Below, one piece after another: positions 13,613 to 30,281 of a stretch of 32,000 bases of DNA (the first letter of the stretch is position 1; every line of letters starts with the position of its first letter). The DNA lies in contig CP095464.1 in NCBI GenBank assembly GCA_021294815.2, positions 150,001 to 182,000 of the forward strand, given 5' to 3'. The notes beneath the pieces were generated by a model. It was not told where the DNA came from. It saw only the letters and a list, made by a program, of their open reading frames with translations, and ran no database searches. A program made the translations under genes and the position numbers. The stretch comes from Verrucomicrobiota bacterium (GTDB lineage Bacteria > Verrucomicrobiota > Verrucomicrobiia > Opitutales > LL51).

Positions 13613-14890
13613 TTGTTTACTTTTCGTTTTTTTTTGATAGAAAGCGCCGTTGTGGGTCTTTTCATTAGTTCCCGCGGTGGCGCGTACGCCTCGAAACAGA
13701 GTGGAAGTGTGCTTCTGCTTTCGATTCTGATTTGCGCGTTCATTTCTGTACTTGCTATCTTGTTTACAAAGCAGTCGCACGAGATGCTTGAGTACCGCAC
13801 GGAGATCCAAATCGATCAAAAGGCCCGTGTCGAAGCTTACTCCTTTCTGGAACTCGCTCTAACATTTTTATCAAAGAGTTGCGAATCCGACAGTGTTCCC
13901 TATCTCAACAGTAACACACGTGCATGGGAGGCTGCTAAGCACGCTAACTCCACAAAAAACGGCCTCACATTCTACAAAGAAATCGTAGCACCTGAAAACC
14001 CAAATGACGATCAGAGTATCGAAAAAGCTATAGGTGAATACATCACCCAATGTGTGACCAAAACCGCCGGCGTTGCGCTAGCTATCGGTGAGGAAGTTAA
14101 GCTCGAAAATCGCAACCTGGAAAAGCTCAAGGGGTATCTCCAGATCAAAAATGCATCCGGCAACAATGTGCCAATGATCCATCACAAAGGCACACAGGGC
14201 ACGTTTGATACTTATTATACCTTCGAGGACCTCAGTAACAAGCTCCCACTTTGTGCGGCGTTCTACAAGAAAAACAAAAATCTCATCAATGCCGCCTTGA
14301 GAAGCGTCAGTGGCGAGTACAGCAACAGTGCCGACGCGATGAGCGATTATCTGACCGCCGATCACCCAAAGACTTTCCATAACTGGAATGAAGTCCAATC
14401 CGCACTGGGAAACGTCAATGCCGCTAAGCTCGAAAGTCTGAAGCGCCTGTTTACGATCGATCGCGAAGTACTGGAACACTGCGAGAACAGAAAAGTCAAC
14501 CTCATTACTGCACACGAAAGCCTTTTAGATGTTGTTAGTAATCACCTCGGACTTATGACAAGTTTGAAGGGGCACGCACGCGATCAATCGTTGATCAAAG
14601 ACCTCGGCACCCACCCTGAGGCAAAACTCTACACCGACCAAACACAGATATTTAAGCTTGGTGTCCATGTGGTTCATAACAATGACAGTATCTTCCAGCT
14701 CCAGTGCTATGGAACCTCCGTCGGCACCGAATCGTCGGGCTCTAAAGTTAGTAAAGAGACGAAGCCCAATTGGTCGGAAAGACTTGGCGGAACCCACGAC
14801 AAGAAAGACAATAAAAAGGACACAAAAAATATCCCAGTGAAAGCATCGTCACGTTTTTGCTTTAATCTTCAATGCATCGAGGAAATTTAA
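13613..14890 (+). CDS. GspK-like minor pseudopilin (diverged)
   Basis: Prepilin-like N-terminus KQSG/SVLLLSILICAFISVLAILF without Glu+5, as in GspK. It also has a VNLITAHESLLDVV motif resembling the GspK (N)xNTA helix-hairpin region, and a C-terminal beta segment (QIFKLGVHVVHNNDSIFQLQCYG). The ORF-track start is the TTG at 13613. The GTG at 13652, preceded by AGAAAG, is a more likely start. Confidence 0.55.
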   Translation: MFTFRFFLIESAVVGLFISSRGGAYASKQSGSVLLLSILICAFISVLAILFTKQSHEMLEYRTEIQIDQKARVEAYSFLELALTFLSKSCESDSVPYLNSNTRAWEAAKHANSTKNGLTFYKEIVAPENPNDDQSIEKAIGEYITQCVTKTAGVALAIGEEVKLENRNLEKLKGYLQIKNASGNNVPMIHHKGTQGTFDTYYTFEDLSNKLPLCAAFYKKNKNLINAALRSVSGEYSNSADAMSDYLTADHPKTFHNWNEVQSALGNVNAAKLESLKRLFTIDREVLEHCENRKVNLITAHESLLDVVSNHLGLMTSLKGHARDQSLIKDLGTHPEAKLYTDQTQIFKLGVHVVHNNDSIFQLQCYGTSVGTESSGSKVSKETKPNWSERLGGTHDKKDNKKDTKNIPVKASSRFCFNLQCIEEI

Positions 14891-14895
14891 GAATT

Positions 14896-15987
14896 ATGGC
14901 CCATTTATCCGATTTATTCGCAAACTGGCAGGAGCAGCGCACGTTGCTCGACCGCGAAGAGGCTTACCTTATCCCCTGCGAGTGTTGCCTAATCAGTAGC
15001 TGCCCGCGACCGGCGGAAAAGAGCAATCCCGCGACGATCGAAGGTGAGGTATCGATTTCACTTGAGACCTCGAGCCCCTTCCCGTTGGACGATATTTTTT
15101 GGGGGTATTTTGAGAACACCACCTCTGGAAACATTCAGATTTTTTCCGCACTCAAATCTCGCATCAAAGACCTCGACACCAATGCCCTTAATGCGACTTA
15201 CCTTCTCCCCGATTGCTTTATACCGATTTTCGATCCTTCGATTAATCGAGCAATTTTGAAGCATCAAGAGCACGAAACCTTTTTTCAACGCGACGTCAAT
15301 GGAGAGCTGACCTTTAGCGAGGAGATCCCGGATCGTAGCGAGATTCCTGTTGTTGAAATTGTTGAGGTAATACCAGTGCGCGAATTTGGTCTCGTTGTCC
15401 ACTACACCTGGCGGACCAATGCCGGCAGCGATGCGTTCGAAAAAGTTCTCGAGATCCCTTACAACGACCTGCGCCTCCACGCGATCAACATGCAAGTTGG
15501 GTTATTGAAAAAAGTCACTGAAAATAACAAACGTACAGCCAATATTACGCGAATCGTTAGCGTCGCTTCGGTTGCCGTAATTTTAGCGACTGTCGGCGGT
15601 TGGTTCTTATTTAGATCCCTAGCAGGACATCAAGTACGGGTTTCACGCAAGCTCACCGCCAAGGAAAAGCAAGTGAAGAGCGTTCAAAGTAAAGATGATC
15701 GCGCCCATGAACTGGAGCTCTTTTCCGACCGCAAGCAGGCTTACTTCCGCGGTCTCGATAAAATCAACGCATTGCGACCAGAGTCGATCCTGTTTAAATC
15801 GCTGCATACCTCTGAAGGCGAGAATTTTGAAATCCGGGGCGTCGCGACCTCACTCGAAGAATCCGAGCGTTTTCAGCGGGCACTCGAAGAGTCCCAGCAG
15901 TTTAGGATCGTAAAACTTGTCAACGAAGGTCTTGACAACGAGGCCCATATCCAATTTTCCCTCTCCCTAACTTTTAGAAAATTATGA
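14896..15987 (+). CDS. Bitopic GspL-like / PilM-PilN fusion-like assembly protein (diverged)
   Basis: ~230-aa cytoplasmic domain, one TM helix (IVSVASVAVILATVGGWFLF), a coiled-coil segment, then a PilN/GspL periplasmic-like end (FEIRGVATSLEESERFQRALEESQQFRIVKLV...IQFSLSLTF). The ATG at 14896 lies 5 nt after the upstream stop. The assignment rests on architecture and context only. Confidence 0.5.
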   Translation: MAHLSDLFANWQEQRTLLDREEAYLIPCECCLISSCPRPAEKSNPATIEGEVSISLETSSPFPLDDIFWGYFENTTSGNIQIFSALKSRIKDLDTNALNATYLLPDCFIPIFDPSINRAILKHQEHETFFQRDVNGELTFSEEIPDRSEIPVVEIVEVIPVREFGLVVHYTWRTNAGSDAFEKVLEIPYNDLRLHAINMQVGLLKKVTENNKRTANITRIVSVASVAVILATVGGWFLFRSLAGHQVRVSRKLTAKEKQVKSVQSKDDRAHELELFSDRKQAYFRGLDKINALRPESILFKSLHTSEGENFEIRGVATSLEESERFQRALEESQQFRIVKLVNEGLDNEAHIQFSLSLTFRKL

Positions 15988-16613
15988 AAAAACCTTCAAC
16001 CCTCAAAACTTTTTTCTCTCTCCTCAAGCCCAGCGAAAGTATCGCCATCGCTGCCGTGCTCGGTGTTGTCGCCCTTGTGGGGATTACAATGAACGTTAAA
16101 GCTTGTAAAACCTACCGAGTGCTCAAATCCGCAAATGAGGAGAAAAACAAAGAACAAAACAGCTGGCTTAGCCGAGAAAAAGACATCGATAAACATTTCC
16201 AAGACGTAATTGATGATATTCGGAGTCGGAAACGCATCGATCGCTCGGAACTCATGACGCTCGTCCAAAATGCCGCCAAACGCTTATCGCTAAAGCACAC
16301 CATTAACGGGATCCCAGAGACCGTGAACGGGAAGTTCTTTTCGTTTAACAAGGTTTCTATCACGCTCAGCGACGCCTATTTTGCCGATATTTTGGCCTTT
16401 GATAATGCTGTCGAGATCCCCGATTACGCCCTCTGCATCGATAGCATGTCGCTCGACCTCTCGGGAGCCAAGTTACGGGCAACAATCAGCCTCTCCGCAC
16501 TCGATATTAAGGCCGACCAAGATCCCAATACCCTCGTCGCGCGGATTTTGGGCTCGTACGATCTCGACGAAAAGCTTATCATGTGGAATGGGAGTAAGGA
16601 TCTCGTCGAATGA
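15984..16613 (+). CDS. Bitopic GspM/PilO-like assembly protein (diverged)
   Basis: Short N-terminus, one TM helix (IAIAAVLGVVALVGITMNV), a charged coiled segment, then a small alpha/beta domain (VSITLSDAYFADILAFDNAVE...IDSMSLDLSGAKLRATISLSAL). It has an ATGA overlap with the upstream gene. The assignment rests on architecture and context only. Confidence 0.45.
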   Translation: MKKPSTLKTFFSLLKPSESIAIAAVLGVVALVGITMNVKACKTYRVLKSANEEKNKEQNSWLSREKDIDKHFQDVIDDIRSRKRIDRSELMTLVQNAAKRLSLKHTINGIPETVNGKFFSFNKVSITLSDAYFADILAFDNAVEIPDYALCIDSMSLDLSGAKLRATISLSALDIKADQDPNTLVARILGSYDLDEKLIMWNGSKDLVE

Positions 16614-16641
16614 AACATTTTTATAAGTAAACAATAAAGGG

Positions 16642-19398
16642 ATGGTTATGACAAAAGGAAGATACTTCGTATTAGGGCTATTTCCGCTCGCGGTTTCAGC
16701 GTCGCTTCTCTGGAACCACAATACAGCGGTCGCCGCAAATGCACCGGTAGCAACAGCATCGGCACCCGGGGCTTTACCGCCAGGTGGAGCTGGATACCCT
16801 GCGCCAGCGGATCCATATCCTCTGGAACCCGATGATGACATTGTCAATCAGCTCGTGCTAACCAACGCTGAGCCTCGTGACGTGATTGGTGTTCTCGAAA
16901 AGCTCACAGGACGGACGGCACTCGTTGAGAAACTCCCAACCTCGATTGGTAAGATTTCGATCGACATTCAAGAACCCATCACCCGATTAGAGGCGATTTC
17001 CGCCGTCGAGAGCGTATTGAGCTTGAACGGTATCGCGATCGTTGATATGGGAGAAAAATTTCTCAAAGCGGTCGATAGCAAACGGGCTATTTCACAGTCA
17101 CCAGAGATTGTTGATGATTCACTGCAGATCTATGAGCCGAATCAGCACATTTGCTCCAAGTTCTTTAAACTCAATTACCTTGATGCGAATGAATTCAACC
17201 GTCTCGTGAAGCCAATTCTAACTCCCAGCGTTTCGAATGTCGTGGTCTTTACAGCTTCCAACTCGCTCTTTATCACCGATACAATGGCCAACCTTCGGCG
17301 TGTCGAAAATCTCGTGGAGCGCACCGATACACCGATTAAAATGATCGAGGAGATCAAATTTATCCCGCTCAACAACGTTAAGGCATCGAGTGTGGTCAAA
17401 AAATTCGATCAACTCAAACGCGGGGCGTTGAAAAAATACCTTTCAAACATGACGATTGACTGCGACGATTCGAGCAATCAGTTGATTATCATTACCCCTC
17501 CTGCAAACCTCTCGATCATCGAAAATATCGCCAAACAACTCGACAATAAATGCGAGCTATTGTTGCGTTCAGAGGTGATGCGCATTAAACACGGTGATGC
17601 GAAAAAGATTACCGAAATTGTCTCTAAAATCGTCAAAGAGCAACGCTCTCGGATTGAAAAGGAGAACAAAATGGCCTTTGAACGCCAACAAGCTCAGATG
17701 ACGGCACAGGGTGCACTTGCGAATGCACTTGCTCAAGCGGCAAGCGGCTCACGAAGCAACCAGCAAATCAGCAATTCTTATAGCGAATTTATCTCGTCTC
17801 AACAGGTGCCTGGTGAAATTGGAGAGGAACAAACGGCGCAATTTTCCGCCAACCTAACACTCGAAGCTGATGAACGCAGCAATTCGATCATCGTCTACGG
17901 AACGGCCTCTGACCTCCAACAGATCCGCAATTTGATCAATAATCTCGATGTCCTCCTCGACCAGGTCCGCATCGAAGTCATCGTCGCCCAAGTTACGTAT
18001 ACGGAGGGTCAACAGTCCGGCCTCGATAGCTTTGGAGTTGATTTCAATAGAGTCAATGGCACAAAAAATGGAGGCACTACAACAGCTAAGACTGGAAGTA
18101 CAAGTGGATCGGCTGGTAGTACTAGTGATGATGGGACGGGTACAGGCGCAGTTGCTGGAACCATCGCAGCTGGAGCTAAAACTCTCCATGAAATTAACTT
18201 TAATCTTGCCCATGCAAACAAAGGAACCTTTACAGGGAGTTTAAGAAACTTTTCTCTAGACGCCGTCTTTAAAGTCGCACAATCAGACACTAATGTCAAA
18301 ATTCTCTCGACGCCGACATTGGTAACGACGCACAACCGCAAGGCAAACTTCAAGATTGGTGAAAAACGTCCATTCCTCGACTCTTCGACTAAGAGTGATA
18401 GTAAAGACGCCCAAGAGCGTATCCAGATCAAGTATGAAAATGTTGGTCTCGAGCTAAAAGTCACACCGCTTATTGGCAATAATGGTATCATCCAAATGGA
18501 AATTGAGCAAAGAATTTCCCAAAAAACTGAAAATGCTAAGATTGCATCTTTGGAATGCCCCGTCATTACAGACAAGGAAATTAATTCTTTTGTTAGTGTT
18601 GCCAACGGCGATGTCATTGTGCTTGCAGGATTTAAAGAGCGTAAGACTGACACAATGAGGGGAAAACTCTTCTTAATTGGTGATATACCCCTTATTGGAG
18701 ATCTTCTTTCCCCCAGGAAACGTGAGGAGTTAACAACGGAATTAATTATCTTCATTAAGCCGACAATTATCCTGCGGCCTCAAGATGAAGCAGCCTATCT
18801 GGATCAACAGGTTGCACGGACATCGATTAAAGAAGACATCGATTACTATAAAAAAACTGGTGGTGATTTGCTACCTTCCAAACCTTTCCCACACACTACG
18901 CTTGAAGACCCAACGAAGGGATTTTTCCCCGAGAAGGAATCTCCTCAAGGGCCTGGTTCCCATCGACAACCACATAAAGGTGTTCCGGAAACTGAACCTA
19001 TCATAGAGGAAACTCTGCCGGTCATTGAACAACCTTCACAAAAGGCAAACCCGCCTCAGGAAAAACAAAATAGCAAGAAAACGCGCCGTCAACGCCGACA
19101 CGCAGCCTCTAATACAAGGGAAAAATCCAAAAAAACCTCCAGGGATTCTTCCAAGAGCAAAACGAATCAGCATTCTCGCCGCGGACGTCACCATGAGGAA
19201 TCCGCTAATAAAGGAAAAACAGTCTCGAAATCACCTGCTGAGTCCGAAAGAGGTGCGGACAACTCGCGCAAGCGATCTCGCGGACGTCGAAGCGAACATG
19301 TTCATTCTCAGTCCAAAGTTCAAACCTCGACTCAAAAAAAATTAGACGCTGGAATGTCGAAGGCACGGGGTCGGAGAAGTAATCGTAGAGCTCAATAA
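16642..19398 (+). CDS. gspD: GspD-type secretin with a ~200-aa C-terminal extension ending in a polybasic tail
   Basis: Signal peptide, then N0 (DVIGVLEKLTGRTALVE...EAISAVESVLSLNGIAIV), then repeated N1-N3 ring-building domains (NSLFITDT, NQLIIITPP, NSIIVYGTASDLQQIRNLINNLD). The secretin core follows (RIEVIVAQV..., ILSTPTLVTTHNRKANFKIGEKRPF, GDIPLIGDLL...ELIIFIKPTII). An AAGGGA Shine-Dalgarno sequence lies upstream. Confidence 0.9.
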   Translation: MVMTKGRYFVLGLFPLAVSASLLWNHNTAVAANAPVATASAPGALPPGGAGYPAPADPYPLEPDDDIVNQLVLTNAEPRDVIGVLEKLTGRTALVEKLPTSIGKISIDIQEPITRLEAISAVESVLSLNGIAIVDMGEKFLKAVDSKRAISQSPEIVDDSLQIYEPNQHICSKFFKLNYLDANEFNRLVKPILTPSVSNVVVFTASNSLFITDTMANLRRVENLVERTDTPIKMIEEIKFIPLNNVKASSVVKKFDQLKRGALKKYLSNMTIDCDDSSNQLIIITPPANLSIIENIAKQLDNKCELLLRSEVMRIKHGDAKKITEIVSKIVKEQRSRIEKENKMAFERQQAQMTAQGALANALAQAASGSRSNQQISNSYSEFISSQQVPGEIGEEQTAQFSANLTLEADERSNSIIVYGTASDLQQIRNLINNLDVLLDQVRIEVIVAQVTYTEGQQSGLDSFGVDFNRVNGTKNGGTTTAKTGSTSGSAGSTSDDGTGTGAVAGTIAAGAKTLHEINFNLAHANKGTFTGSLRNFSLDAVFKVAQSDTNVKILSTPTLVTTHNRKANFKIGEKRPFLDSSTKSDSKDAQERIQIKYENVGLELKVTPLIGNNGIIQMEIEQRISQKTENAKIASLECPVITDKEINSFVSVANGDVIVLAGFKERKTDTMRGKLFLIGDIPLIGDLLSPRKREELTTELIIFIKPTIILRPQDEAAYLDQQVARTSIKEDIDYYKKTGGDLLPSKPFPHTTLEDPTKGFFPEKESPQGPGSHRQPHKGVPETEPIIEETLPVIEQPSQKANPPQEKQNSKKTRRQRRHAASNTREKSKKTSRDSSKSKTNQHSRRGRHHEESANKGKTVSKSPAESERGADNSRKRSRGRRSEHVHSQSKVQTSTQKKLDAGMSKARGRRSNRRAQ

Positions 19399-19419
19399 CA
19401 CGAACTAGGGGGAAGCACA

Positions 19420-20037
19420 ATGATACGTTTATTCAAGTTCATCGGTTACGGACTCCCCCTTTTGGGAGTCGCCAATGTCGTCGGAGAAACAGGTCCACAA
19501 GCAAACGTAGCCTACAGTTCACGTGGGCTGGAACAACGGTCGCCATTCGGTGATCGGAAACCTCGCTCTAAGCCAGTCATTAAGACAAGCACAGCAGCAC
19601 AAACAATACCGGTTAAAAAGCCGGAACCTCCGTTGTCGAAACGGGATTTGTCATTCGTTGGATTTTTAAGCATCAACGGCTACCGCGAGTATGTGATTCA
19701 CGAAAAAATCAAAACTGACTTCGTTTACCAAATCATTAACCAGCAATTTCCGACGCCACTCCATTATAAGGCAGGGAAGTATGATGTCCAAAATCAGACA
19801 CTGGAAGTGTTGATTGATAACGATCGGGCTCTTTGTAAACTCGGAGAATCCAAGGATAACAAGGGCGGTAGTGGTACAAGTAGCGCGAAAGTGGCTTATG
19901 GAAATAGTGATAGCAGTTCATCAAAAAACACTGCCTCCAAGGGAAATTCTAACTACTCCAAGTGGGATGACTTTTGGGACGATGATGACGACGATTTCGA
20001 CTGGCTCGATGACGACTGGGATGATTTCGACTTCTAA
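19420..20037 (+). CDS. Small exported protein, PilP/GspC-HR-like core with an extreme acidic-aromatic C-terminal tail
   Basis: Strong Shine-Dalgarno (AGGGGGAAG), then a hydrophobic N-terminus (FKFIGYGLPLLGVANVVG), a Pro/Lys linker, and a beta-rich core (LSFVGFLSINGYREYVIHEKIKTDFVYQI...LEVLIDNDRALCKLGE). An S/G/N linker leads to the tail WDDFWDDDDDDFDWLDDDWDDFDF. Coding status is well supported. The functional assignment is architectural only. Confidence 0.5.
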   Translation: MIRLFKFIGYGLPLLGVANVVGETGPQANVAYSSRGLEQRSPFGDRKPRSKPVIKTSTAAQTIPVKKPEPPLSKRDLSFVGFLSINGYREYVIHEKIKTDFVYQIINQQFPTPLHYKAGKYDVQNQTLEVLIDNDRALCKLGESKDNKGGSGTSSAKVAYGNSDSSSSKNTASKGNSNYSKWDDFWDDDDDDFDWLDDDWDDFDF

Positions 20038-20050
20038 TATGGGATGACAC

Positions 20051-21739
20051 ATGGACAATTTTTTAGATAAACTCTTCGCCTCGGTAGCACCGGATTTACC
20101 AGAGGCGATCGCGGGGCTTCACGTCGACAAAAAAATCGAACTGCTCGCGGAAAAGTTAAATGCGGATATTAACGGCGCATACGAGTGGCTGTCCAATGCG
20201 ACACAGATGCCGTTTCAGCCCAAATTCTCTGTTTCGCAAGGTGTGACGTCGATCTTGCCTGAAAAGCTCATTTTGGAGTATTCTTGCTTACCAATTGATC
20301 TGGGCGAAGGTCAAAAACAAGGGCTCGTTTTTGGCTGGCCTCCGGATGGGAATATGAAGAAATGGATTAAAGCTTCTTCAACAAAAGATTTTCAGTACTG
20401 CCTCGGACCAGCCGCGGATATTCGAAAATTCATTAACGAGCGTTTCGGTGTTGGCGCGGGAAGCTTTTTAGATGGTGCTGCCGATGGCGTTGGGCTCGTC
20501 GAAAAGAAAGAAGTTGAACAGGAGGACGAAGATGCGGTCGTGATCAAGTTCGTCAATGAGCTGATCAAACAGGCATTACGCGATCGCGCGACCGATATTC
20601 ACTTCGAGCCGCAAAAAAACTCCTTACAGATTCGCTACCGAATCGACGGTGCACTGGTTCCCGTCAGCTTACCCCCAAACCTCGTGCTTTTTCAGTCAGC
20701 GATTATCTCGCGATTGAAAATCATGGCGAAGCTCAATATTTCGGAAAAACGTCGTCCACAAGATGGACGTATCGCGTTTCGCTCCGGTGATACCTCGATC
20801 GACATCCGTGTTTCGACACTTCCGATTACCTATGGCGAGAGCATTAGCTTACGTCTACTCAATCTTGGTGAAGCGCCGGTACAACTCGAGAAAATGGGCC
20901 TTGGCGAGAAGGAATTCGATCAAGTTGTTAACGCGATTACCCGTCCTCACGGAATTGTCTTGGTGACCGGTCCCACGGGATCCGGAAAATCGACGATGTT
21001 GAACGCATGCATCCGAAAAATCGAAGACCCGGAAATCCGCATTATTACAGTCGAAGACCCAGTCGAGTACGAAATCGCGGGAATCAATCAGTGTCAGGTT
21101 CAGTCCGATATTGGGATGACGTTTGCGAGTGCATTGCGTTCGATCTTACGTCAGGACCCCGATGTCGTGATGATCGGTGAGATTCGCGATGGCGAGACCG
21201 CTGACATCGCAATCCGTGCTTCGATTACGGGACACCTTGTCTTGAGTACCCTCCATACAAATGATGCGGCCGGAGCGGTTTCCCGTCTTTGCGATATGGG
21301 GCTTGAGCCATTTCTCCTGGCCTCTTCGTTGCAACTTGTCGTTGCGCAACGTCTTGTTCGACGGATTTGTCCGCACTGCGCCACTAAAGCCAACTACACG
21401 CCGGAACAACTCGATTACGCACTTCGTGCGCTTCGTGTCCATAATCACAAAGATGAACTACAGTTTTTGGATAAGATTATGGTCGGTAAAGGGTGTGACA
21501 AGTGTAAAAACGGATTCAAGGGTCGGCTCGCGGTCCATGAAATTCTAGTCATCAGCGACAAAATCCAGCAGTGTATTATCAAAAACGCCCCGGCTCGCGA
21601 GATTCGACGGGTTGCGATTTCGGAGGGAATGCGAACACTCCAAGAATGTTCCTGGGATCACGTCAAGAAAGGCGAGACGACGCTCGACGAGGTCATGCAG
21701 TTTGCCGATAAAAACAATATGGACGACGAGGAATCGTAA
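20051..21739 (+). CDS. gspE: Type II secretion / type IV pilus assembly ATPase (GspE/PilB family)
   Basis: T2SSE_N-like N-domain, Walker A GPTGSGKST, VEDPVEY, LRQDPDVVMIGEIRD and the His box TGHLVLSTLHTN. The tetracysteine motif is CPHC...CDKC. Confidence 0.92.
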   Translation: MDNFLDKLFASVAPDLPEAIAGLHVDKKIELLAEKLNADINGAYEWLSNATQMPFQPKFSVSQGVTSILPEKLILEYSCLPIDLGEGQKQGLVFGWPPDGNMKKWIKASSTKDFQYCLGPAADIRKFINERFGVGAGSFLDGAADGVGLVEKKEVEQEDEDAVVIKFVNELIKQALRDRATDIHFEPQKNSLQIRYRIDGALVPVSLPPNLVLFQSAIISRLKIMAKLNISEKRRPQDGRIAFRSGDTSIDIRVSTLPITYGESISLRLLNLGEAPVQLEKMGLGEKEFDQVVNAITRPHGIVLVTGPTGSGKSTMLNACIRKIEDPEIRIITVEDPVEYEIAGINQCQVQSDIGMTFASALRSILRQDPDVVMIGEIRDGETADIAIRASITGHLVLSTLHTNDAAGAVSRLCDMGLEPFLLASSLQLVVAQRLVRRICPHCATKANYTPEQLDYALRALRVHNHKDELQFLDKIMVGKGCDKCKNGFKGRLAVHEILVISDKIQQCIIKNAPAREIRRVAISEGMRTLQECSWDHVKKGETTLDEVMQFADKNNMDDEES

Positions 21740-23773: not shown

Positions 23774-24592
23774 ATGGGAAATATAGACTTAAGCAATAAC
23801 ATTAGTCGTCCACGGGATGGGAGTAACATGGGGGTACGCGATGCGCTGCCGTTCGCCTCTTCGATGAGAACAAAAACGGAAATTTTTAACACTATCGAAG
23901 ACCAAATACAGAATGCCCGCGAGCAGGGAAATATGATTCCGGACGCCACGATGGATCAGCTCGTGCTCAATATCTCGGGGCGCGAAACTACTTCCGAAGA
24001 GTTACTGAAGGCAACAGAAACAACTCAAAAGTTAATCACCAGCGCTTCCCTACTTTCGGAACGTGCGCAAAATGAGCTCGTCAATACGCCTTCAAAAATT
24101 ATCCAACACAGCCATGCAAGTACCGATGTCCAGGAAAAGGGGAAGGCGCTCTACCAGGATCTCGCGGCACAGCTATCCGCACTCACTTCAGGCGAAGCAC
24201 AAAAAAAACTTCTCCAAGCAATCGATAACACTGATACCTCGGAAAAACGCCATAGCTGGCACGTCGCACTCTTTGAATCTATCGATCAAAACGCTGACCA
24301 AGGGATCGATAATATCAATGCAGTTGCTCAGCGTCCACTGATCCGCTTGATGGGCGATACGGCACAGAACCTTCCTGCGGTTTCAGCGAATGAGCAAGCC
24401 TCATTCCAACAGTCGGCGATGCATATGCTCCAAAGGGCGCAATTCCCGTATAAATTCGATGCCGATGCTTTCCGCGAGGCCCTTGTGGCTCTAGCTGCTG
24501 TCCCGGAAAATGTTCGGACAACGGAATATAGTAGGTTTCTCAAGGACGAAGAAGACCGGGCAAAAGCGTTAAACACACAAGCGGCCGAGTAA
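23774..24592 (+). CDS. Hypothetical protein, predicted helical and soluble, no recognisable family
   Basis: Uninterrupted 272-codon ORF filling the gap between the phosphohexomutase gene and pyrH. Its composition is similar to its neighbours. I see no TM segment, signal peptide or motif. The only competing ORFs are short ones in other frames. Confidence 0.55.
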   Translation: MGNIDLSNNISRPRDGSNMGVRDALPFASSMRTKTEIFNTIEDQIQNAREQGNMIPDATMDQLVLNISGRETTSEELLKATETTQKLITSASLLSERAQNELVNTPSKIIQHSHASTDVQEKGKALYQDLAAQLSALTSGEAQKKLLQAIDNTDTSEKRHSWHVALFESIDQNADQGIDNINAVAQRPLIRLMGDTAQNLPAVSANEQASFQQSAMHMLQRAQFPYKFDADAFREALVALAAVPENVRTTEYSRFLKDEEDRAKALNTQAAE

Positions 24593-26274: not shown

Positions 26275-27603
26275 TTAGAGGCACAGTGCGCCAATGAGCG
26301 CAAATCCCATCACCGGGAGATTGAAATAAATAAACGCCGGCACACAGCTATCCCAAATATGATCATGCTGTCCATCGGCATTAAGTCCTGACGTAACGCC
26401 CAACATTGTATCGGAAACCGGCGATCCCGCATCGCCCAACGCCGCCGTCGCCCCAATGAGACAAACGGTCGCTAAAGGGCTAAAACCTAGCTCGACGCAT
26501 AATGGAACACAAATCCCCGCGACAATCGGTACTGTGGAAAACGATGATCCGATACCCATGGTAATGAGGAGCCCAACGAGTAACATGCCTAAAGCACCGA
26601 GAAAAGGGCTACCGTGGACGGCTTCGGTCAACCAACTGACAAGTGCCTGCGTATCGCCTGTTGCTTGGAGTACGGCACTGAAACCCGAGGCCGCGATCAT
26701 AATAAACGCAATCAGCGACATCATTTTAAACCCCTGTGTCACGATATTGTCCGACTCATGCCACCCGACAACACCACCAAGCGTAAAGATACAAAATCCC
26801 GTCATCGCACTCGCAATGGTGTTTTCCAAAATAATTTGGACGATCAGTGTGCCTAAAATCGCCAACCCCGAAACAATGATATCCCAACGCGTACAAGGTT
26901 CTTCTTCCGTCGCATGGACAGAACGCGTTTTGTTGCGATCATAATGCCGAGGCTTCCGATAACGGTAGAGCGATAACACAAGCCCGACAACCATTCCGAA
27001 TGCCGGTAATGCCATGCCGAGAACAATTTCTTTCAGACTGACCGAAACACCGTATTGGAGTAAATTTTCACGGAGAATGCTATCTAAAAAAATGCTCCCA
27101 AAGCCATACGGAATCAGCATGTACGCAAAAATCAGACCAAAGGCTAATAAATTACTCAATAAACGGCGATCAATCTGGAGCTCGGCAAAAACTTCTAGCA
27201 AAGGTGGAATGAGAATCGGTATAAACGCAATATGGACCGGAAGTATGTTTTTCGAGGCAATGGCAATCAAACCAATAAAAACAAAAATGAGCGCTTTGAG
27301 GTGAAGTCGACGATGACTTTCTCGACTCGTAACAAAGTGAATGACTTTTTGCGATAGCCAAATGGGAACACCAGAATGCGCTACGGCTGCTGCAAAAGCA
27401 CCTAAAATCCCATAGCTTAGGGCGATATTCGCACCGCCACCGAGACCTGAAGCAAAAATCTCGAGTGTTTTGGGAACGGAAAATCCACCCAAAGTCCCCC
27501 CTAAAATCGCACCTGCTGTCAGCGCAATCACTACGTTTACCCGAAGGAGCGCAAGCCCAAGAACGCTCGCAATCGCAACGAGAACCGAATTTGTTAGAAT
27601 CAT
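26275..27603 (-). CDS. YuiF-like membrane transporter (Na+/H+ antiporter NhaC C-terminal family), paralog 1
   Basis: Polytopic 442-aa protein. LRVNVVIALT, PVHIAFIPILIPPLLEVFAELQIDRR, LITMGIGSSFSTVPI and LGDAGSPVSDTMLGVTSGLNADGQHDHIWDSCVP match what I recall of B. subtilis YuiF. The substrate is unknown. Confidence 0.85.
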   Translation of the reverse strand: MILTNSVLVAIASVLGLALLRVNVVIALTAGAILGGTLGGFSVPKTLEIFASGLGGGANIALSYGILGAFAAAVAHSGVPIWLSQKVIHFVTSRESHRRLHLKALIFVFIGLIAIASKNILPVHIAFIPILIPPLLEVFAELQIDRRLLSNLLAFGLIFAYMLIPYGFGSIFLDSILRENLLQYGVSVSLKEIVLGMALPAFGMVVGLVLSLYRYRKPRHYDRNKTRSVHATEEEPCTRWDIIVSGLAILGTLIVQIILENTIASAMTGFCIFTLGGVVGWHESDNIVTQGFKMMSLIAFIMIAASGFSAVLQATGDTQALVSWLTEAVHGSPFLGALGMLLVGLLITMGIGSSFSTVPIVAGICVPLCVELGFSPLATVCLIGATAALGDAGSPVSDTMLGVTSGLNADGQHDHIWDSCVPAFIYFNLPVMGFALIGALCL

Positions 27604-27608
27604 GTTTT

Positions 27609-28901
27609 TTAAGATTGAAAGATTTCGAGTGTCCGACGAATACGTGCTAATACCCGTTTCTTACCGAGGACAGGCAACATCCGATAAAAGCTCGGACCAA
27701 CACCGCGTCCAGAGACCGCAAAGCGAACCGTATGAATATAGTCCCCGGTTTTAACGCCATGTTGTTCGGAAAGATCGTGAATCATCTGTTCCAAATTCGT
27801 TTCGTTGAATTCTGTTAACGCATCGGCAGCATTTAAAAATTCTTCGAGACGTGGACGCGGATTGAATTTCGATAACTTTTCCCACTCTGCTTGCGGACGC
27901 TCAAAGTTTTCATCGAAAAAGTATTCTACAAAACGCCCTAATTCGGTAAATGAACGTAGCTTTTCTTGGCAAATCGTCAGGACTTGGTCGATATAGGCTT
28001 CATCCGTATGAACATCGAGTAATTCCTTCCCGCGGCGTAAAAATTCTTCGAGCGGCATATTTTTAATGTATTCCGCATTCATGTAGGCTAATTTACGTTC
28101 ATCGAAACGGGCATTCGTCTTGTTAATTTCAGGGAGATCAAAGAGACGAATCACTTCTTCAATCGGCATAATTTCGCGATCATCTTTGGGAGACCACCCG
28201 AGTAAACAAAGGTAATTGCGTAGTGCTTCGGGAATAAAGTGCTGTTTATGATAATCTTCAACCAGGGCTCCGGTTTCGCGCTTACTCATCTTCCCCGCTC
28301 CATTGGTTTTTAAGATTAACGGAATGTGGGCAAATTTTGGCGGCTGCACACCGAGTGCTTTGAAGAGCTCTACATGTTTGCTAGAATTCGATAAGTGATC
28401 AGCCCCACGAATCACATGGGAAATCTGCATCGCAGCATCATCGACCACATTGACAAAATGAAAGGTCGGTGTCCCATTCGAGCGAAAGATTACAAAATCT
28501 TTTTCCTCCGCACGGTAAACAGGCCCGTGGATTAAATCGTCAATGAGCTGCGGTTCGTGTGAAACTCGAAAGAAAATCGCCCCCTCTTGCTCGTAGACTT
28601 TATCGTTTTTTCGGAGAATTTCCAAATATTCTTGGTAAATTGTATCACGTTGACTCTGAAAATAAGGGCCATAATCCCCACCGACTTCCGGACCTTCATC
28701 CCAATCGAGCCCAAGCCAATGAAGACTGTCAAAAATAACCTCCGTCGCCCCTGGAATATGTCGTTCGCGATCAGTATCTTCTATGCGTAAAACAAAAGTC
28801 CCCCCGGTATGGCGCGCGTAGAGCCAGTTAAACAGCGCGGTCCTCGCCCCGCCAATATGAAAAAACCCTGTCGGACTCGGTGCAAAACGAACGCGTACCA
28901 T
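27609..28901 (-). CDS. gltX: Glutamyl-tRNA synthetase
   Basis: VRVRFAPSPTGFFHIGGARTALFNWLYAR (HIGH motif), LRIEDTDRER and KMSKR (KMSKS motif). At 430 aa it is at the short end for bacterial GluRS. Confidence 0.93.
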   Translation of the reverse strand: MVRVRFAPSPTGFFHIGGARTALFNWLYARHTGGTFVLRIEDTDRERHIPGATEVIFDSLHWLGLDWDEGPEVGGDYGPYFQSQRDTIYQEYLEILRKNDKVYEQEGAIFFRVSHEPQLIDDLIHGPVYRAEEKDFVIFRSNGTPTFHFVNVVDDAAMQISHVIRGADHLSNSSKHVELFKALGVQPPKFAHIPLILKTNGAGKMSKRETGALVEDYHKQHFIPEALRNYLCLLGWSPKDDREIMPIEEVIRLFDLPEINKTNARFDERKLAYMNAEYIKNMPLEEFLRRGKELLDVHTDEAYIDQVLTICQEKLRSFTELGRFVEYFFDENFERPQAEWEKLSKFNPRPRLEEFLNAADALTEFNETNLEQMIHDLSEQHGVKTGDYIHTVRFAVSGRGVGPSFYRMLPVLGKKRVLARIRRTLEIFQS

Positions 28902-28955
28902 AGTGGCGCCGACGGTACACAGATTCGCTGAAAAGGAAATAAAAAACTCCCTCTT

Positions 28956-30281
28956 TTACAGCCAAAGCGCACCGAGCAGCCCAAACGCAATCACCGGAAG
29001 ATTGAAATCAATAAACGCCGGTACGCAGCTATCCCAAATATGATCATGCTGGCCATCCGCATTGAGTCCCGATGTAACACCCAACATCGTATCCGATACC
29101 GGTGATCCCGCATCGCCAATTACCGCTGTTGCCCCGACAATACAGATTGTCGCCAGTGGACTAAAGCCCAATTCCAAACACAAGGGAACATAAATACCGG
29201 CGATAATCGGAACCGTTGAAAATGAAGAACCGATGCCCATTGTAATCAAAAGCCCAACGGATAACATACCACAAGCTGCAAGGAAGGAATTGCCATGAAC
29301 TGCATCACTTAGCCACTGAACGAGAGCTTGTGTATCGCCCGTCGCACGTAGAACTGCACTAAATCCAGAAGCTGCAATCATGATAAACGCAATGAGCGAC
29401 ATCATTTTGAATCCCTGGGTTACGACGTTATCCGATTCGCGCCAGCCAACAACACCGCCTAGCGTAAAAATCAAGAACCCTGCCATTGCGCTCGCAATGG
29501 TACTTTCTAAAACAATTTGAACAACAAGTGCTCCGAAAATTGCTGAACTCGAAACGATCATATCCCGACGCGTACACGGTTTTTCCTCACGGGTCTGGAT
29601 AGAATGAATTTTCGTACAACTATAATCTCGTGGCTTCCGGTAACGATAAAACGATAATAGCAACCCGACAATCATCCCTATCGCCGGAAACGTCATACCC
29701 AACATTACTTCCTTAAGACTCACTGACAAACCGTTTTGGACCAAATGGGTTCGCAAAATGCTTTCTAAAAAGATACTACCAAAGCCATATGGAATCCACA
29801 TGTAGGCAAAGATAATCCCAAACGAAATGAGATTGCCGACGACACGACGATCGATCTGTAGTTCGGCAAAAACTTCTAGCAAAGGTGGAATAAGAATCGG
29901 TATAAACGCAATATGAACTGGGATCGCATTTTGCGAAGCAATCGCCAAGCCACCAATCAGGATAAACATTAGGACCTTTACGAAAATAGGCTTTCCACGT
30001 GGACGTCGAACAAAAGCAATTATTTTTTGGGATAACCAAATCGGAACTCCTGAATGGGCAACCGCAGCCGCAAACGCCCCGAGAATGCCATAGCTTAGAG
30101 CGATATTCGCACCACCACCAAGTCCCAATGCAAAAATCTCCAACGTCTTTTGAGGAGAAAATCCTCCTAAAATACCACCTACAAATGCCCCTGTCGTTAA
30201 CGCAATCACGACATTGACACGGCATAAAGCCAAAATAAGTACACAGCCAACCGCGGCGAGCACCGAGTTCGTCAGAATCAT
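28956..30281 (-). CDS. YuiF-like membrane transporter, paralog 2
   Basis: 441 aa, colinear with the 26275..27603 product and carrying the same family motifs. Identity is roughly four fifths at the amino-acid level by eye. Confidence 0.85.
   Translation of the reverse strand: MILTNSVLAAVGCVLILALCRVNVVIALTTGAFVGGILGGFSPQKTLEIFALGLGGGANIALSYGILGAFAAAVAHSGVPIWLSQKIIAFVRRPRGKPIFVKVLMFILIGGLAIASQNAIPVHIAFIPILIPPLLEVFAELQIDRRVVGNLISFGIIFAYMWIPYGFGSIFLESILRTHLVQNGLSVSLKEVMLGMTFPAIGMIVGLLLSFYRYRKPRDYSCTKIHSIQTREEKPCTRRDMIVSSSAIFGALVVQIVLESTIASAMAGFLIFTLGGVVGWRESDNVVTQGFKMMSLIAFIMIAASGFSAVLRATGDTQALVQWLSDAVHGNSFLAACGMLSVGLLITMGIGSSFSTVPIIAGIYVPLCLELGFSPLATICIVGATAVIGDAGSPVSDTMLGVTSGLNADGQHDHIWDSCVPAFIDFNLPVIAFGLLGALWL

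What the first reader, a model, noticed from the sequence alone, without database searches (positions are those of the whole stretch)
19420..20037. Adjacent small exported protein ends in an extreme Asp/Trp/Phe tail, charge-complementary to the secretin tail
The gene 21 nt downstream of the secretin has a strong Shine-Dalgarno sequence. Its product has a hydrophobic N-terminus, a Pro/Lys linker, a PilP/GspC-HR-like beta core and an S/G/N-rich linker. The last 24 residues (nt 19963..20034) are WDDFWDDDDDDFDWLDDDWDDFDF, which is 15 Asp, 4 Trp, 4 Phe and 1 Leu. GspC proteins normally carry a PDZ or coiled-coil domain at this position. A polyanionic aromatic tail encoded next to a polycationic secretin tail suggests an electrostatic tether, meaning a pilotin/S-domain-like or GspC-secretin docking pair built from disordered tails. 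Alternatives are a Ca2+/metal-binding or substrate-capture element. I am not aware of this pairing being described.
Basis: partly seen in the sequence, partly recalled or inferred. Interest (0 to 1): 0.75.

Follow-up and report, generated by a model that had tools for sequence, protein, structure and literature searches.

The report
Acidic tryptophan tail on secretin connector
A small exported protein encoded next to the outer-membrane pore of a protein-secretion machine in uncultured gut Verrucomicrobia ends in a conserved tail made almost entirely of aspartate and aromatic residues; the tail is real and under selection, but that it grips the pore's positively charged tail is plausible rather than shown.

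Summary
ORF 19420..20037 (205 aa) ends in WDDFWDDDDDDFDWLDDDWDDFDF, which has 23 of 24 residues as D, W or F. The next best 24-residue window in six frames has 12.

The protein belongs to a very small family: 16 representatives among 1.84 billion proteins, all in Puniceicoccales/Opitutales MAGs. It always lies between the secretin and gspE in a T2SS-like cluster. Its layout is a signal peptide, an F-x-S-L-x-x-R-S-P-F-G-D motif, a Pro/Lys spacer, a six-stranded beta core, an S/G/N linker and the acidic-aromatic tail.

A GspC-HR/PilP-type core fits by topology, gene position and colinear sub-threshold matches, but no match is significant.

Twenty-seven related clusters fall into three states:
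- **Group A (16 loci):** acidic/aromatic connector tail, and a long secretin extension with a basic end.
- **Group B (5 loci):** no connector tail, yet three secretins have long tails with Arg clusters.
- **Group O (6 loci):** the connector tail is basic (RRRVIRP), and the secretin tail is short and neutral or acidic.

The acidic tail therefore never occurs without a basic secretin tail, but the converse does occur. Quantitative covariation is weak. Tail-to-tail docking is the best single hypothesis (about 0.35-0.4). I file this as a new variant of a known kind.

The parts
13613..14890 (+). First gene of the cluster. It encodes a possible GspK-like minor pseudopilin. The true start is probably downstream, near KQSGSVLLLSIL.
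   Evidence: Its position is conserved in L001, L004-L013, L020 and L022. It has no Pfam or NCBIfam match. The assignment rests on the N-terminal hydrophobic segment and gene order only, so it is an inference.
14872..15987 (+). GspL-like assembly-platform protein with a PilN-type periplasmic C-terminal domain.
   Evidence: Pfam PilN PF05137 matches at aa 295-365 with 22.3 bits against a cut-off of 22.8. Orthologues in L001 and L013 give 22.8 and 17.7 bits.
15984..16613 (+). GspM/PilO-like platform protein, assigned by position only.
   Evidence: A conserved 206-210 aa gene lies between the PilN-domain gene and the secretin in all related loci. It has no family match.
16642..19398 (+). GspD-type secretin of 918 aa. 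It has an N0 domain (aa 74-142), three Secretin_N stretches and a secretin domain (aa 547-710).
   Evidence: Pfam Secretin matches at 3e-35, Secretin_N at 1.5e-28 and N0 at 23.4 bits. TIGR02517 GspD scores 320 bits, below its cut-off of 351.
18772..18903 (+). Conserved segment just after the barrel (aa 711-754, RPQDEAAYLD...PFPHTTL). It occupies the position of an S-domain.
   Evidence: The segment is conserved between groups A and B. The S-domain role is an inference.
18904..19395 (+). Disordered C-terminal extension of the secretin (aa 755-918). Residues 801-918 have net charge +27, with clusters RRQRR, RRGR, RKRSRGRR and a terminal RGRRSNRRAQ.
   Evidence: The charges were computed. All 16 group A orthologues have an extension with a basic end, and several build it from tandem repeats.
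19408..19413 (+). Shine-Dalgarno-like GGGGGA, 6 nt upstream of the ATG.
   Evidence: Read directly from the sequence.
19420..19488 (+). Predicted Sec signal peptide (aa 1-23, MIRLFKFIGYGLPLLGVANVVG|E).
   Evidence: The hydrophobic stretch is about 15 aa and contains Gly and Pro. The best 19-aa Kyte-Doolittle mean is 1.46, and residues V and G sit at -3 and -1. Homologues have still shorter h-regions and AxA-like sites. No dedicated predictor was available, so this is an inference.
19525..19554 (+). Family signature motif GLEQRSPFGD (aa 36-45). L37, S41, P42 and F43 are invariant or nearly invariant.
   Evidence: Shown by alignments A2, A4 and A7. In P0010 the motif falls within a sub-threshold match to Pfam T2SSC.
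19555..19647 (+). Pro/Lys-rich spacer (aa 46-76, net +7).
   Evidence: A Pro/Lys-rich spacer of roughly 30-40 aa is scored in the 13 group A connectors where the parser worked and is visible by eye in L006, L009 and L020; group B linkers are 17-23 aa with at most one Pro.
19648..19842 (+). Six-stranded beta core (aa 77-141), a candidate GspC-HR/PilP-type domain that would bind secretin N0.
   Evidence: The AF2 core model has mean pLDDT 88 and six consecutive strands. hhalign places it on the T2SSC region of E. coli GspC, but with probability of only 2-5%. Foldseek hits PilP 2lc4 at E 0.1 with the full-length model only.
19843..19962 (+). Flexible Ser/Gly/Asn-rich linker (aa 142-181).
   Evidence: pLDDT is 39-50. 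Composition was read from the sequence.
19963..20037 (+). Polyanionic aromatic tail WDDFWDDDDDDFDWLDDDWDDFDF (aa 182-205, net -15), followed by a TAA stop.
   Evidence: Tails of the same composition occur in all full-length family members.
20051..21739 (+). GspE/PilB-type secretion ATPase.
   Evidence: Pfam T2SSE matches at 2.7e-131. TIGR02533 GspE scores 534 bits and PilB 506 bits, both below their cut-offs.

Best explanation
ORF 19420..20037 encodes the periplasmic connector of a T2SS-like machine in a reduced-genome, gut-associated member of Puniceicoccales (Verrucomicrobiota).

**Proposed anatomy**
- The protein is exported by a cleavable signal peptide (inferred).
- It presents an N-terminal F-x-S-L-x-x-R-S-P-F-G-D motif, inferred to dock on the GspL/GspM-like inner-membrane platform.
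- A Pro/Lys spacer follows.
- A six-stranded beta domain of the GspC-HR/PilP kind comes next, inferred to dock on the secretin N0 domain.
- A roughly 40-residue flexible linker leads to a 24-residue tail of Asp interleaved with Trp and Phe.

**What is shown about the tail:** it is a selected, clade-specific, fast-evolving low-complexity module.

**Most likely mechanism (inferred):** the tail is a multivalent acidic-aromatic 'sticker'. It would bind the Arg/Lys clusters of the long disordered C-terminal extension of the cognate secretin through salt bridges and cation-pi contacts. This would give an otherwise unanchored connector a second, fuzzy hold on the secretin, and/or shield the polycationic secretin tails during assembly.
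For: **Tail and family**
- The tail's composition is extreme.
- The family is tiny: 16 representatives among 1.84e9 proteins. All full-length members keep the same layout and a D plus W/F/Y tail despite 25-30% identity.
- The gene always lies between the secretin and gspE.

**Core domain**
- The core has six consecutive strands at pLDDT about 90. This matches the six-strand sandwich described for GspC-HR in PMC3169554.
- Colinear sub-threshold matches point to T2SSC/GspC: Pfam E 0.053 in P0010, and hhalign onto E. coli GspC residues 84-157, which fall within its T2SSC domain at 76-152.
- PilP 2lc4 ranks second in Foldseek with the full-length model.

**Pairing with the secretin tail**
- All 16 clusters with an acidic/aromatic connector tail have a secretin extension of 116-318 aa whose last 30 residues are net +1 to +11 and which ends in an RRR-type motif.
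- No cluster has an acidic tail without a basic secretin tail.
- Across the wider family the two tails have opposite polarity. Where the connector tail is basic (six group O loci, five of them parsed, net +4 to +13), the parsed secretin tails are 40-59 aa long with net charge -6 to +1. Homology of group O connectors is supported by hhalign at 93% probability, E 3e-7.
- Both tails grow by tandem duplication. In L005 both are expanded: RRRRR modules about three times, and WDD about eight times.
- The secretin tail's K+R count correlates positively, though weakly, with the connector tail's D+E count (rho 0.54).

**Precedents**
- Acidic, Trp-containing disordered tails are known docking elements, for example the WalK C-terminal tail (PMC9087282).
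- The only PDB sequence resembling the tail is the BLM acidic-aromatic peptide, crystallised as a fusion with RPA70 (7xuw). That the peptide occupies RPA70N's basic cleft is from my own knowledge.
Against: - Three of five group B clusters (L015, L018, L021) have long secretin tails with Arg clusters but a tail-less connector. The basic tail therefore has a function that does not need the acidic tail.
- The net charge of the whole secretin tail is zero or negative in 4 of 16 group A loci.
- Covariation is weak, not corrected for phylogeny, and absent for charge densities.
- The Pro/Lys spacer of the same protein is found in group A and not in group B, so it is an alternative basic partner.
- Membership of the core in GspC-HR/PilP is not statistically supported. 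The core-only model gave no PilP or GspC hit (best E 0.13), and hhalign probability is 2-5%.
- No co-folding or binding test could be run.
Confidence: 0.38

Rival explanations
1. The tail anchors the machine to the cell wall or envelope. In this reading the acidic-aromatic tail binds peptidoglycan glycan strands (aromatic stacking plus carboxylates) or bridges to envelope polyanions through Ca2+ or Mg2+. It would resemble the C-terminal extension of the HR-domain scaffold GspB/OutB.
For: OutB consists of a TM helix, an HR domain and a 28-residue low-complexity C-terminal extension. That extension cross-links to peptidoglycan and is needed for full secretion (PMC9239104). The connector here has the same order of parts: beta core, then a low-complexity tail. 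Its tail is evolutionarily plastic (basic, absent or acidic), as might be expected of an envelope-contact element. Poly-Asp is a classic divalent-cation binder (general knowledge).
Against: Peptidoglycan and the inner leaflet of the outer membrane are themselves anionic. A tail of net charge -15 would need cation bridging to bind them. The basic tails of group O connectors and of group A/B secretins are the more natural envelope binders. Nothing here tests sugar or metal binding.
Confidence: 0.2
2. The tail pairs with the Pro/Lys spacer of the same protein, either within one molecule or head-to-tail between neighbours. This would drive ring formation or auto-inhibition of the connector under the secretin.
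For: Spacer and tail go together. All 16 group A connectors have both, although the spacer was scored automatically in only 13 (the parser failed on L006, L009 and L020). None of the five group B connectors has either. Group O has neither a Pro/Lys spacer nor an acidic tail. In the window protein the spacer is +7 and the tail -15, so the mature protein is close to neutral overall.
Against: The spacer's K+R count is nearly constant (6-10), while the tail's D+E count ranges from 7 to 21, so the two do not scale together. A Pro-rich Lys-Pro/Glu-Pro spacer is more simply read as a rigid periplasm-spanning rod of the TonB type (general knowledge).
Confidence: 0.13
3. The tail captures substrates or pseudopilins. 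In this reading it replaces the PDZ or coiled-coil domain of canonical GspC and recruits basic exoproteins or pseudopilin tips into the secretin vestibule.
For: In canonical GspC the domain after HR is a PDZ domain implicated in substrate specificity (bioRxiv 10.64898/2026.05.07.723501). Here the tail occupies that position, and no PDZ domain is detected.
Against: Group B connectors work with no C-terminal module at all, and group O connectors carry a basic one. A conserved substrate-recognition role at this position is therefore unlikely. No substrates are known for this organism.
Confidence: 0.12
4. The tail is a neutral low-complexity expansion. It would be a by-product of replication slippage in a reduced-genome symbiont and have no specific function.
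For: Related tails do expand by short tandem DNA repeats, for example a 9-nt WDD unit repeated about 8 times in L005. Tail length and sequence vary greatly.
Against: The same unusual composition (Asp plus Trp/Phe/Tyr, almost no K/R, an aromatic last residue in 11 of 16) is kept across lineages that share only 25-30% identity in the folded core. It is always at the C-terminus. In the window the DNA is not a clean repeat.
Confidence: 0.07

Closest known systems
GspC (T2SS protein C; Pfam T2SSC PF11356, usually with a C-terminal PDZ or coiled coil)
   Same: It is encoded beside gspD in a T2SS-type cluster. A conserved x-F-G motif and a linker precede a roughly 65-residue domain of six consecutive beta strands. 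Sub-threshold matches land in register on the T2SSC/HR region.
   Different: No convincing TM anchor is present; a signal peptide is predicted instead. There is no PDZ or coiled coil. The C-terminus is a polyanionic aromatic tail. The gene lies after the secretin rather than before it. The sequence similarity is not significant.
PilP (type IVa pilus alignment-complex lipoprotein)
   Same: Both are small periplasmic proteins with a disordered N-terminal part and a beta-sandwich core that binds secretin N0. The neighbouring gene here encodes a PilN-type domain. PilP 2lc4 was the second Foldseek hit with the full-length model.
   Different: No lipobox Cys is present. The hit was not recovered with the better core-only model. 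PilP has no acidic tail.
GspB/OutB scaffold of Dickeya (an HR domain plus a polyampholyte C-terminal extension)
   Same: An HR-type domain is followed by a short low-complexity C-terminal extension with its own function. In OutB that function is peptidoglycan contact, and the extension is needed for full secretion (PMC9239104).
   Different: OutB has a TM anchor. Its extension is a polyampholyte of 28 residues, not a net -15 Asp/Trp/Phe tail. No sequence relationship was detected.
Pilotin / secretin S-domain pairs (GspS, AspS and others)
   Same: In both cases a dedicated partner is proposed to bind the extreme C-terminus of the secretin.
   Different: Pilotins are folded outer-membrane lipoproteins that bind a short S-domain helix. 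Here the candidate partner has no lipobox, and both elements are long or disordered low-complexity tails.
Acidic-aromatic docking tails (the W-acidic tail of WalK; the BLM peptide crystallised with RPA70; the SSB and T7 gp2.5 tails, recalled from my own knowledge)
   Same: These are disordered acidic stretches with Trp or Phe, often with a C-terminal aromatic residue, that dock on basic surfaces (PMC9087282; 7xuw, where the basic-cleft binding is from my own knowledge).
   Different: All of them are cytoplasmic or nuclear, and each carries a single motif. Here the tail is periplasmic and multivalent, and the proposed partner is itself disordered.

Membership tests
GspC (T2SS protein C) | Encoded in a T2SS gene cluster next to the secretin gene | tested here: met
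   The gene lies between a GspD-type secretin and a GspE-type ATPase in the window and in 27 related loci.
GspC (T2SS protein C) | N-terminal transmembrane anchor (a bitopic inner-membrane protein) | tested here: inconclusive
   The only hydrophobic stretch is about 15 aa and contains Gly and Pro. Its best 19-aa Kyte-Doolittle mean is 1.46, and it is followed by a V-x-G|E site. Homologues have 9-12 aa h-regions and AxA-like sites. This favours a cleaved signal peptide. No dedicated predictor was available.
GspC (T2SS protein C) | HR domain homologous to Pfam T2SSC: a six-strand beta sandwich | tested here: inconclusive
   The AF2 core has six consecutive strands, as described for GspC-HR. Pfam T2SSC matches only P0010, at E 0.053, and not the window protein. 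hhalign places the core on E. coli GspC residues 84-157, within its T2SSC domain, but at 2-5% probability. Foldseek with the core-only model found no GspC or PilP structure.
GspC (T2SS protein C) | C-terminal PDZ or coiled-coil domain | tested here: not met
   No Pfam PDZ or other domain is detected. The region after the core is predicted to be disordered, with pLDDT 39-53.
GspC (T2SS protein C) | [quoted passage not shown] | not testable with these tools
   An N0 domain is present in the secretin (23.4 bits). No multimer prediction or binding assay was available.
PilP (T4aP) | Lipoprotein with a lipobox Cys after the signal peptide | tested here: not met
   There is no Cys in the first 138 residues of the window protein, and no L-x-x-C lipobox in the N-termini of the family members read.
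PilP (T4aP) | PilP-type beta-sandwich core | tested here: inconclusive
GspB/OutB scaffold | TM anchor, HR domain and a C-terminal extension that contacts peptidoglycan | tested here: inconclusive
   The order 'beta core then low-complexity extension' is shared. A TM anchor is unlikely. Peptidoglycan binding is not testable here.
Secretin pilotin (GspS/AspS type) | Outer-membrane lipoprotein that binds the secretin S-domain | tested here: not met
   No lipobox is present. S-domain binding is not testable.

The most novel reading that the evidence does not exclude
The roughly 15 polycationic, repeat-built secretin tails and the polyanionic Trp/Tyr-rich connector tails form a fuzzy polyelectrolyte/cation-pi collar around the periplasmic part of the secretin. 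This would be a new assembly principle. It would replace the membrane anchor of GspC and the pilotin/S-domain lock. Its charge polarity was swapped during evolution: a basic connector tail in free-living Opitutae, and an acidic connector tail with a basic secretin tail in the gut clade.
Probability: 0.17. Interest if true: 0.75.

Novelty: new variant of a known kind. Interest (0 to 1): 0.5.

Why it matters
T2SS connectors (GspC, PilP, GspB) are known to tie the outer-membrane secretin to the inner-membrane platform through folded domains.

If the acidic-aromatic tail does bind the secretin's polycationic extension, it would be the first case of a secretin complex held together, or chaperoned, by paired disordered tails. 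The three natural states found here (basic, absent, acidic connector tails) would provide ready-made controls.

The result also defines a previously unannotated connector family for verrucomicrobial T2SS clusters. These clusters are otherwise annotated as lacking GspC. One of them is retained on an 878-kb contig from a MAG that may have a reduced genome.

Tried and rejected
**Searches that failed or were unavailable**
- A genome-contig scan with the connector alignment failed because no stretch was conserved enough. The secretin alignment was used instead.

**Searches that found no link to GspC or PilP**
- Profile searches of PDB sequences found no PilP or GspC. They found only a compositional match of the tail to the BLM peptide in 7xuw.
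- An iterated homologue search with the widened alignment A4 did not reach any annotated GspC or PilP.
- Adding group O sequences (A7) did not raise the hhalign probability against E. coli GspC.

**A result I withdrew**
- A first tail-versus-tail correlation (rho 0.78) came from inconsistent region definitions and is discarded. With uniform definitions it is 0.54, or 0.45 without near-duplicates.

**Explanations considered and rejected**
- UGA-to-Trp recoding, which is known in some Verrucomicrobiota. TGA ends 10 of 26 ORFs here, and this ORF ends in TAA.
- A PEP-CTERM/MYXO-CTERM-type sorting signal for the Arg-rich secretin end. No hydrophobic segment precedes the Arg cluster (sequence).
- A pure DNA-slippage artefact in the window.
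- A type IV pilus or competence secretin. GspD scores 320 bits against 176 for PilQ, and three Secretin_N stretches plus N0 fit a T2SS. This is a leaning, not a proof.
Full report
**1.
ORF 19420..20037 (+) encodes 205 aa. It starts 21 nt after the stop of a 918-aa secretin and ends 13 nt before a GspE-type ATPase gene. Its last 24 residues are WDDFWDDDDDDFDWLDDDWDDFDF: 15 Asp, 4 Trp, 4 Phe and 1 Leu. Among 29,368 stop-free 24-residue windows in six frames, the mean D+W+F count is 2.6 and the best window elsewhere has 12, against 23 here. The binomial P for at least 15 Asp in 24 is 5e-14. The Asp codons are mixed (8 GAC, 7 GAT), and TRF finds only a weak 15-nt, 2.8-copy array. The genetic code is standard, with TGA ending 10 of 26 ORFs. 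Segment charges are: Pro/Lys linker +7, core 0, S/G/N linker +3, tail -15. Secretin aa 801-918 are net +27.

**2. Source and context.**
The secretin and the small protein are identical to UPA28572.1 and UPA28573.1 of a 'Verrucomicrobiota bacterium' MAG (locus tags LW808_000665 and LW808_000670), on an 878-kb contig. Relatives are Puniceicoccales/Opitutales MAGs. The JAI* records appear to come from termite guts and the K2L24 MAG from a rodent gut, judging by isolate names and locus tags only; I did not verify this.

The cluster reads as follows:
- an unannotated 425-aa gene (possibly GspK-like, by inference only);
- a 371-aa protein with a C-terminal PilN-type domain (22.3 bits against a cut-off of 22.8, repeated in two orthologues);
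- a 209-aa gene in the GspM/PilO position;
- the secretin;
- the small protein;
- gspE.

No gspF or pseudopilin genes lie in the window. Flanking synteny (RNase G, RodA and ATP synthase upstream; phosphoglucomutase downstream) is shared in full with L001 and in part (ATP synthase and phosphoglucomutase) with L013.

**3. The family.**
A word-indexed search found 4 homologues. An exhaustive HMMER profile search of 1.84 billion representatives found only 16. All full-length members share one layout: a short hydrophobic N-terminus; the motif F-x-S-L-x-x-R-S-P-F-G-D (L37, S41, P42 and F43 invariant or nearly so); a Pro/Lys spacer; a beta core; an S/N/G/Y linker; and a C-terminal tail of Asp with Trp, Phe or Tyr. 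Example tail ends are GWNWDEWDDDDDFDW, LDDDWDDWDDDDW, NWDDWDDWDDDW and YDYDFDFDDWDFDDDDDWDY. Because these proteins share only 25-30% identity in the core, the tail's composition is under selection. Its exact sequence is not.

**4. What the folded part is.**
- *Structure prediction.* AF2 gives a confident core. With the full-length input, residues 77-141 have pLDDT above 90. A core-only model has mean pLDDT 88 and pTM 0.74. It consists of six consecutive beta strands with a longer connection between strands 3 and 4. Everything else is disordered. GspC-HR is described as a sandwich of six consecutive strands in two three-stranded sheets, with PilP as its closest structural relative (PMC3169554).
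- *Direct tests are weak.* With the full-length model, Foldseek ranks PilP 2lc4 second (E 0.1, probability 0.82, TM 0.40). With the core-only model no PilP or GspC structure appears, and the best E is 0.13.
- *Verdict.* The protein works like a GspC/PilP/GspB-class secretin connector by position, topology and register. Membership in those families is not demonstrated. It lacks the PDZ or coiled coil of GspC, the lipobox of PilP and of pilotins, and probably a TM anchor. The hydrophobic stretch is about 15 aa with Gly and Pro, has a 19-aa Kyte-Doolittle mean of 1.46, and has small residues at -3 and -1.

**5. Do the two tails travel together?**
I collected 27 related clusters besides the window. 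They fall into three states.

| Group | Loci | Secretin identity to window | Connector | Secretin post-barrel tail |
|---|---|---|---|---|
| A | 16 scored, including the window | 46% or more | Pro/Lys spacer plus acidic/aromatic tail; post-core net charge 0 to -20; aromatic last residue in 11 of 16 | 116-318 aa; last 30 residues net +1 to +11; ends in an RRR-type motif; whole-tail net -5 to +29 |
| B | 5 (L015-L018, L021) | 35-39% | Only 107-160 aa; no spacer and no tail | 56-376 aa; net +2 to +17 |
| O | 6 (L023, L024, L031, L034, L078, L042; five parsed) | 29-35% | Homologous (hhalign 93%, E 3e-7; BLASTP 2e-9) but with a basic, Pro/Arg-rich tail carrying an RRRVIRP-like motif; net +4 to +13 | In the five parsed loci, 40-59 aa; net -6 to +1 |

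L003 was excluded because its connector is cut off by the contig end. In group B, three secretin tails are long and carry Arg clusters: L015 has HTRRRLRRRANRK, L018 has KYRRRRTRG, and L021 has repeated QRR modules. Group O loci come from environmental metagenomes. In many other distant clusters gspE follows the secretin directly.

Three conclusions follow:
- The acidic tail never occurs without a basic secretin tail (16 of 16).
- Basic secretin tails do occur without the acidic tail (3 of 5 in group B).
- The polarity of the connector tail is inverted between group O and group A, while the secretin tail changes the opposite way.

Within group A, the secretin tail's K+R count correlates with the connector tail's D+E count at rho 0.54 (one-sided permutation p 0.02). 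After dropping two near-duplicates this falls to 0.45 (p 0.06). Charge densities do not correlate, and nothing is corrected for phylogeny. An earlier value of 0.78 came from inconsistent region definitions and should be ignored.

Both tails grow by tandem duplication. In L006 an 87-nt unit encoding an RRKRR module is repeated 4.9 times at 96% identity. In L005 a 102-nt unit with RRRRR is repeated 2.9 times in the secretin, and a 9-nt WDD unit about 8 times in the connector.

**6. Mechanism.**
*Shown:* the tail is a selected, clade-specific, disordered polyanionic-aromatic C-terminal module on a protein that is always encoded between the secretin and gspE.

*Inferred, with moderate support:* the protein is a soluble periplasmic connector whose beta core docks on secretin N0 and whose N-terminal SPFG motif docks on the GspL/M-like platform.

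*Inferred, with weaker support (about 0.35-0.4):* the tail binds the Arg/Lys clusters of the secretin extension through multivalent salt bridges and cation-pi contacts.
- Geometry allows it. A 40-residue flexible linker and a 160-residue disordered extension can easily meet in the periplasm.
- Chemistry favours it. Asp pairs with Arg/Lys, and Trp/Tyr/Phe with Arg.
- Acidic, Trp-containing disordered tails are established docking elements (WalK C-terminal tail, PMC9087282; BLM peptide crystallised with RPA70, 7xuw; SSB and T7 gp2.5 tails from my own knowledge).

The group B counter-examples mean the secretin's basic tail must have a function of its own, such as contact with an anionic envelope component. 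The acidic tail would then be a later addition that binds, shields or regulates it.

**7. Rivals.**
[quoted passage not shown] The difficulty is the like charge of tail and envelope.
- *Pairing with the protein's own Pro/Lys spacer (0.13).* The spacer is found in group A and not in group B, but its charge does not scale with the tail.
- *A substitute for the substrate-selecting PDZ domain of GspC (0.12).* This is unlikely to be a conserved role, because sister groups have no tail or a basic one.
- *Neutral low-complexity expansion (0.07).* This is contradicted by compositional conservation across deep divergence.

**8. Novelty and verdict.**
I found no description of this family, of its SPFG motif, or of an acidic-aromatic connector tail paired with a polycationic secretin extension in the literature searches. 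It is best filed as a new variant of a known kind: a secretin-N0 connector of T2SS/T4P machines. It is not a new kind of system. Interest is moderate (0.5). The tail, the charge inversion and the repeat-built secretin tails are unusual, and the three natural states give built-in controls. But the proposed docking is untested, and the organisms are uncultured.

Noticed in passing
L024:5399-5968, L031:5450-6046, L034:2006-2539, L078:956-1603, L042:5456-6142: Distant homologues of the connector, from environmental Verrucomicrobia, carry a basic Pro/Arg-rich C-terminal tail with a shared RRRVIRP-like motif. This is the opposite charge to the window protein. Their secretins have short tails that are neutral or acidic.
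   Followed up: partly
L006:8480-8903; L005:8284-8583 and 9243-9325: Secretin C-terminal extensions are built from near-identical tandem DNA repeats, each encoding an Arg cluster: 87 nt repeated 4.9 times at 96% identity in L006, and 102 nt repeated 2.9 times in L005. In L005 the connector tail is also a 9-nt WDD repeat of about 8 copies.
   Followed up: partly
L014:7497-8624: One group A connector (375 aa) has an extra acidic repeat region of roughly 190 aa (units such as KSDDEESADDEDQDKEESSE) inserted between the signal peptide and the SPFG-type motif. It also has a Tyr/Asp tail.
   Followed up: no
L018:5001-7136 (P0073) and L040: In a group B secretin, the tail carries both an Arg cluster (KYRRRRTRG) and an acidic-aromatic stretch (YDEDVLW...FDQFDRYYDD) on the same polypeptide. 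Its connector has no tail.
   Followed up: no
L020:5606-6307; L007:8110-8796; L008:4549-5208: In some lineages the connector tail is a long Gly/Tyr/Asp low-complexity region (for example GGYDSYGYGGGGYDSYGYGG..., ending in W) rather than Trp/Asp. It resembles eukaryotic prion-like or FUS-type sequences.
   Followed up: no
window 17640-17900 (secretin aa ~335-420): Secretins of this clade carry a roughly 60-70 aa insertion within the third Secretin_N stretch (IEKENKMAFERQQAQ...ALAQAASGSRSNQQISN...). It is almost invariant among three orthologues that share only 57% identity overall. It is shorter or absent in group B.
   Followed up: no
window 13613-21739: The T2SS-like cluster has no gspF, no major or minor pseudopilin genes other than a possible gspK-like gene, and no prepilin peptidase gene. 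It is wedged between ATP synthase genes and phosphoglucomutase, and this arrangement is conserved in L001 and L013.
   Followed up: partly
window 26275-30281 (- strand): Two paralogous Na+/H+ antiporter genes (Pfam Na_H_antiporter plus Na_H_antiport_2, 442 and 441 aa) flank a class I Glu/Gln-type tRNA synthetase gene.
   Followed up: no
window 23774-24592: A conserved 272-aa ORF with no family match follows phosphoglucomutase. An orthologue sits at the same place in L001 (268-280 aa).
   Followed up: no
window 14872-14896: The GspL-like ORF overlaps the upstream gene by 19 nt if it starts at 14872. Orthologues begin at the equivalent of MAHLSDLF (14896), so the real start is probably the downstream ATG.
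   Followed up: no
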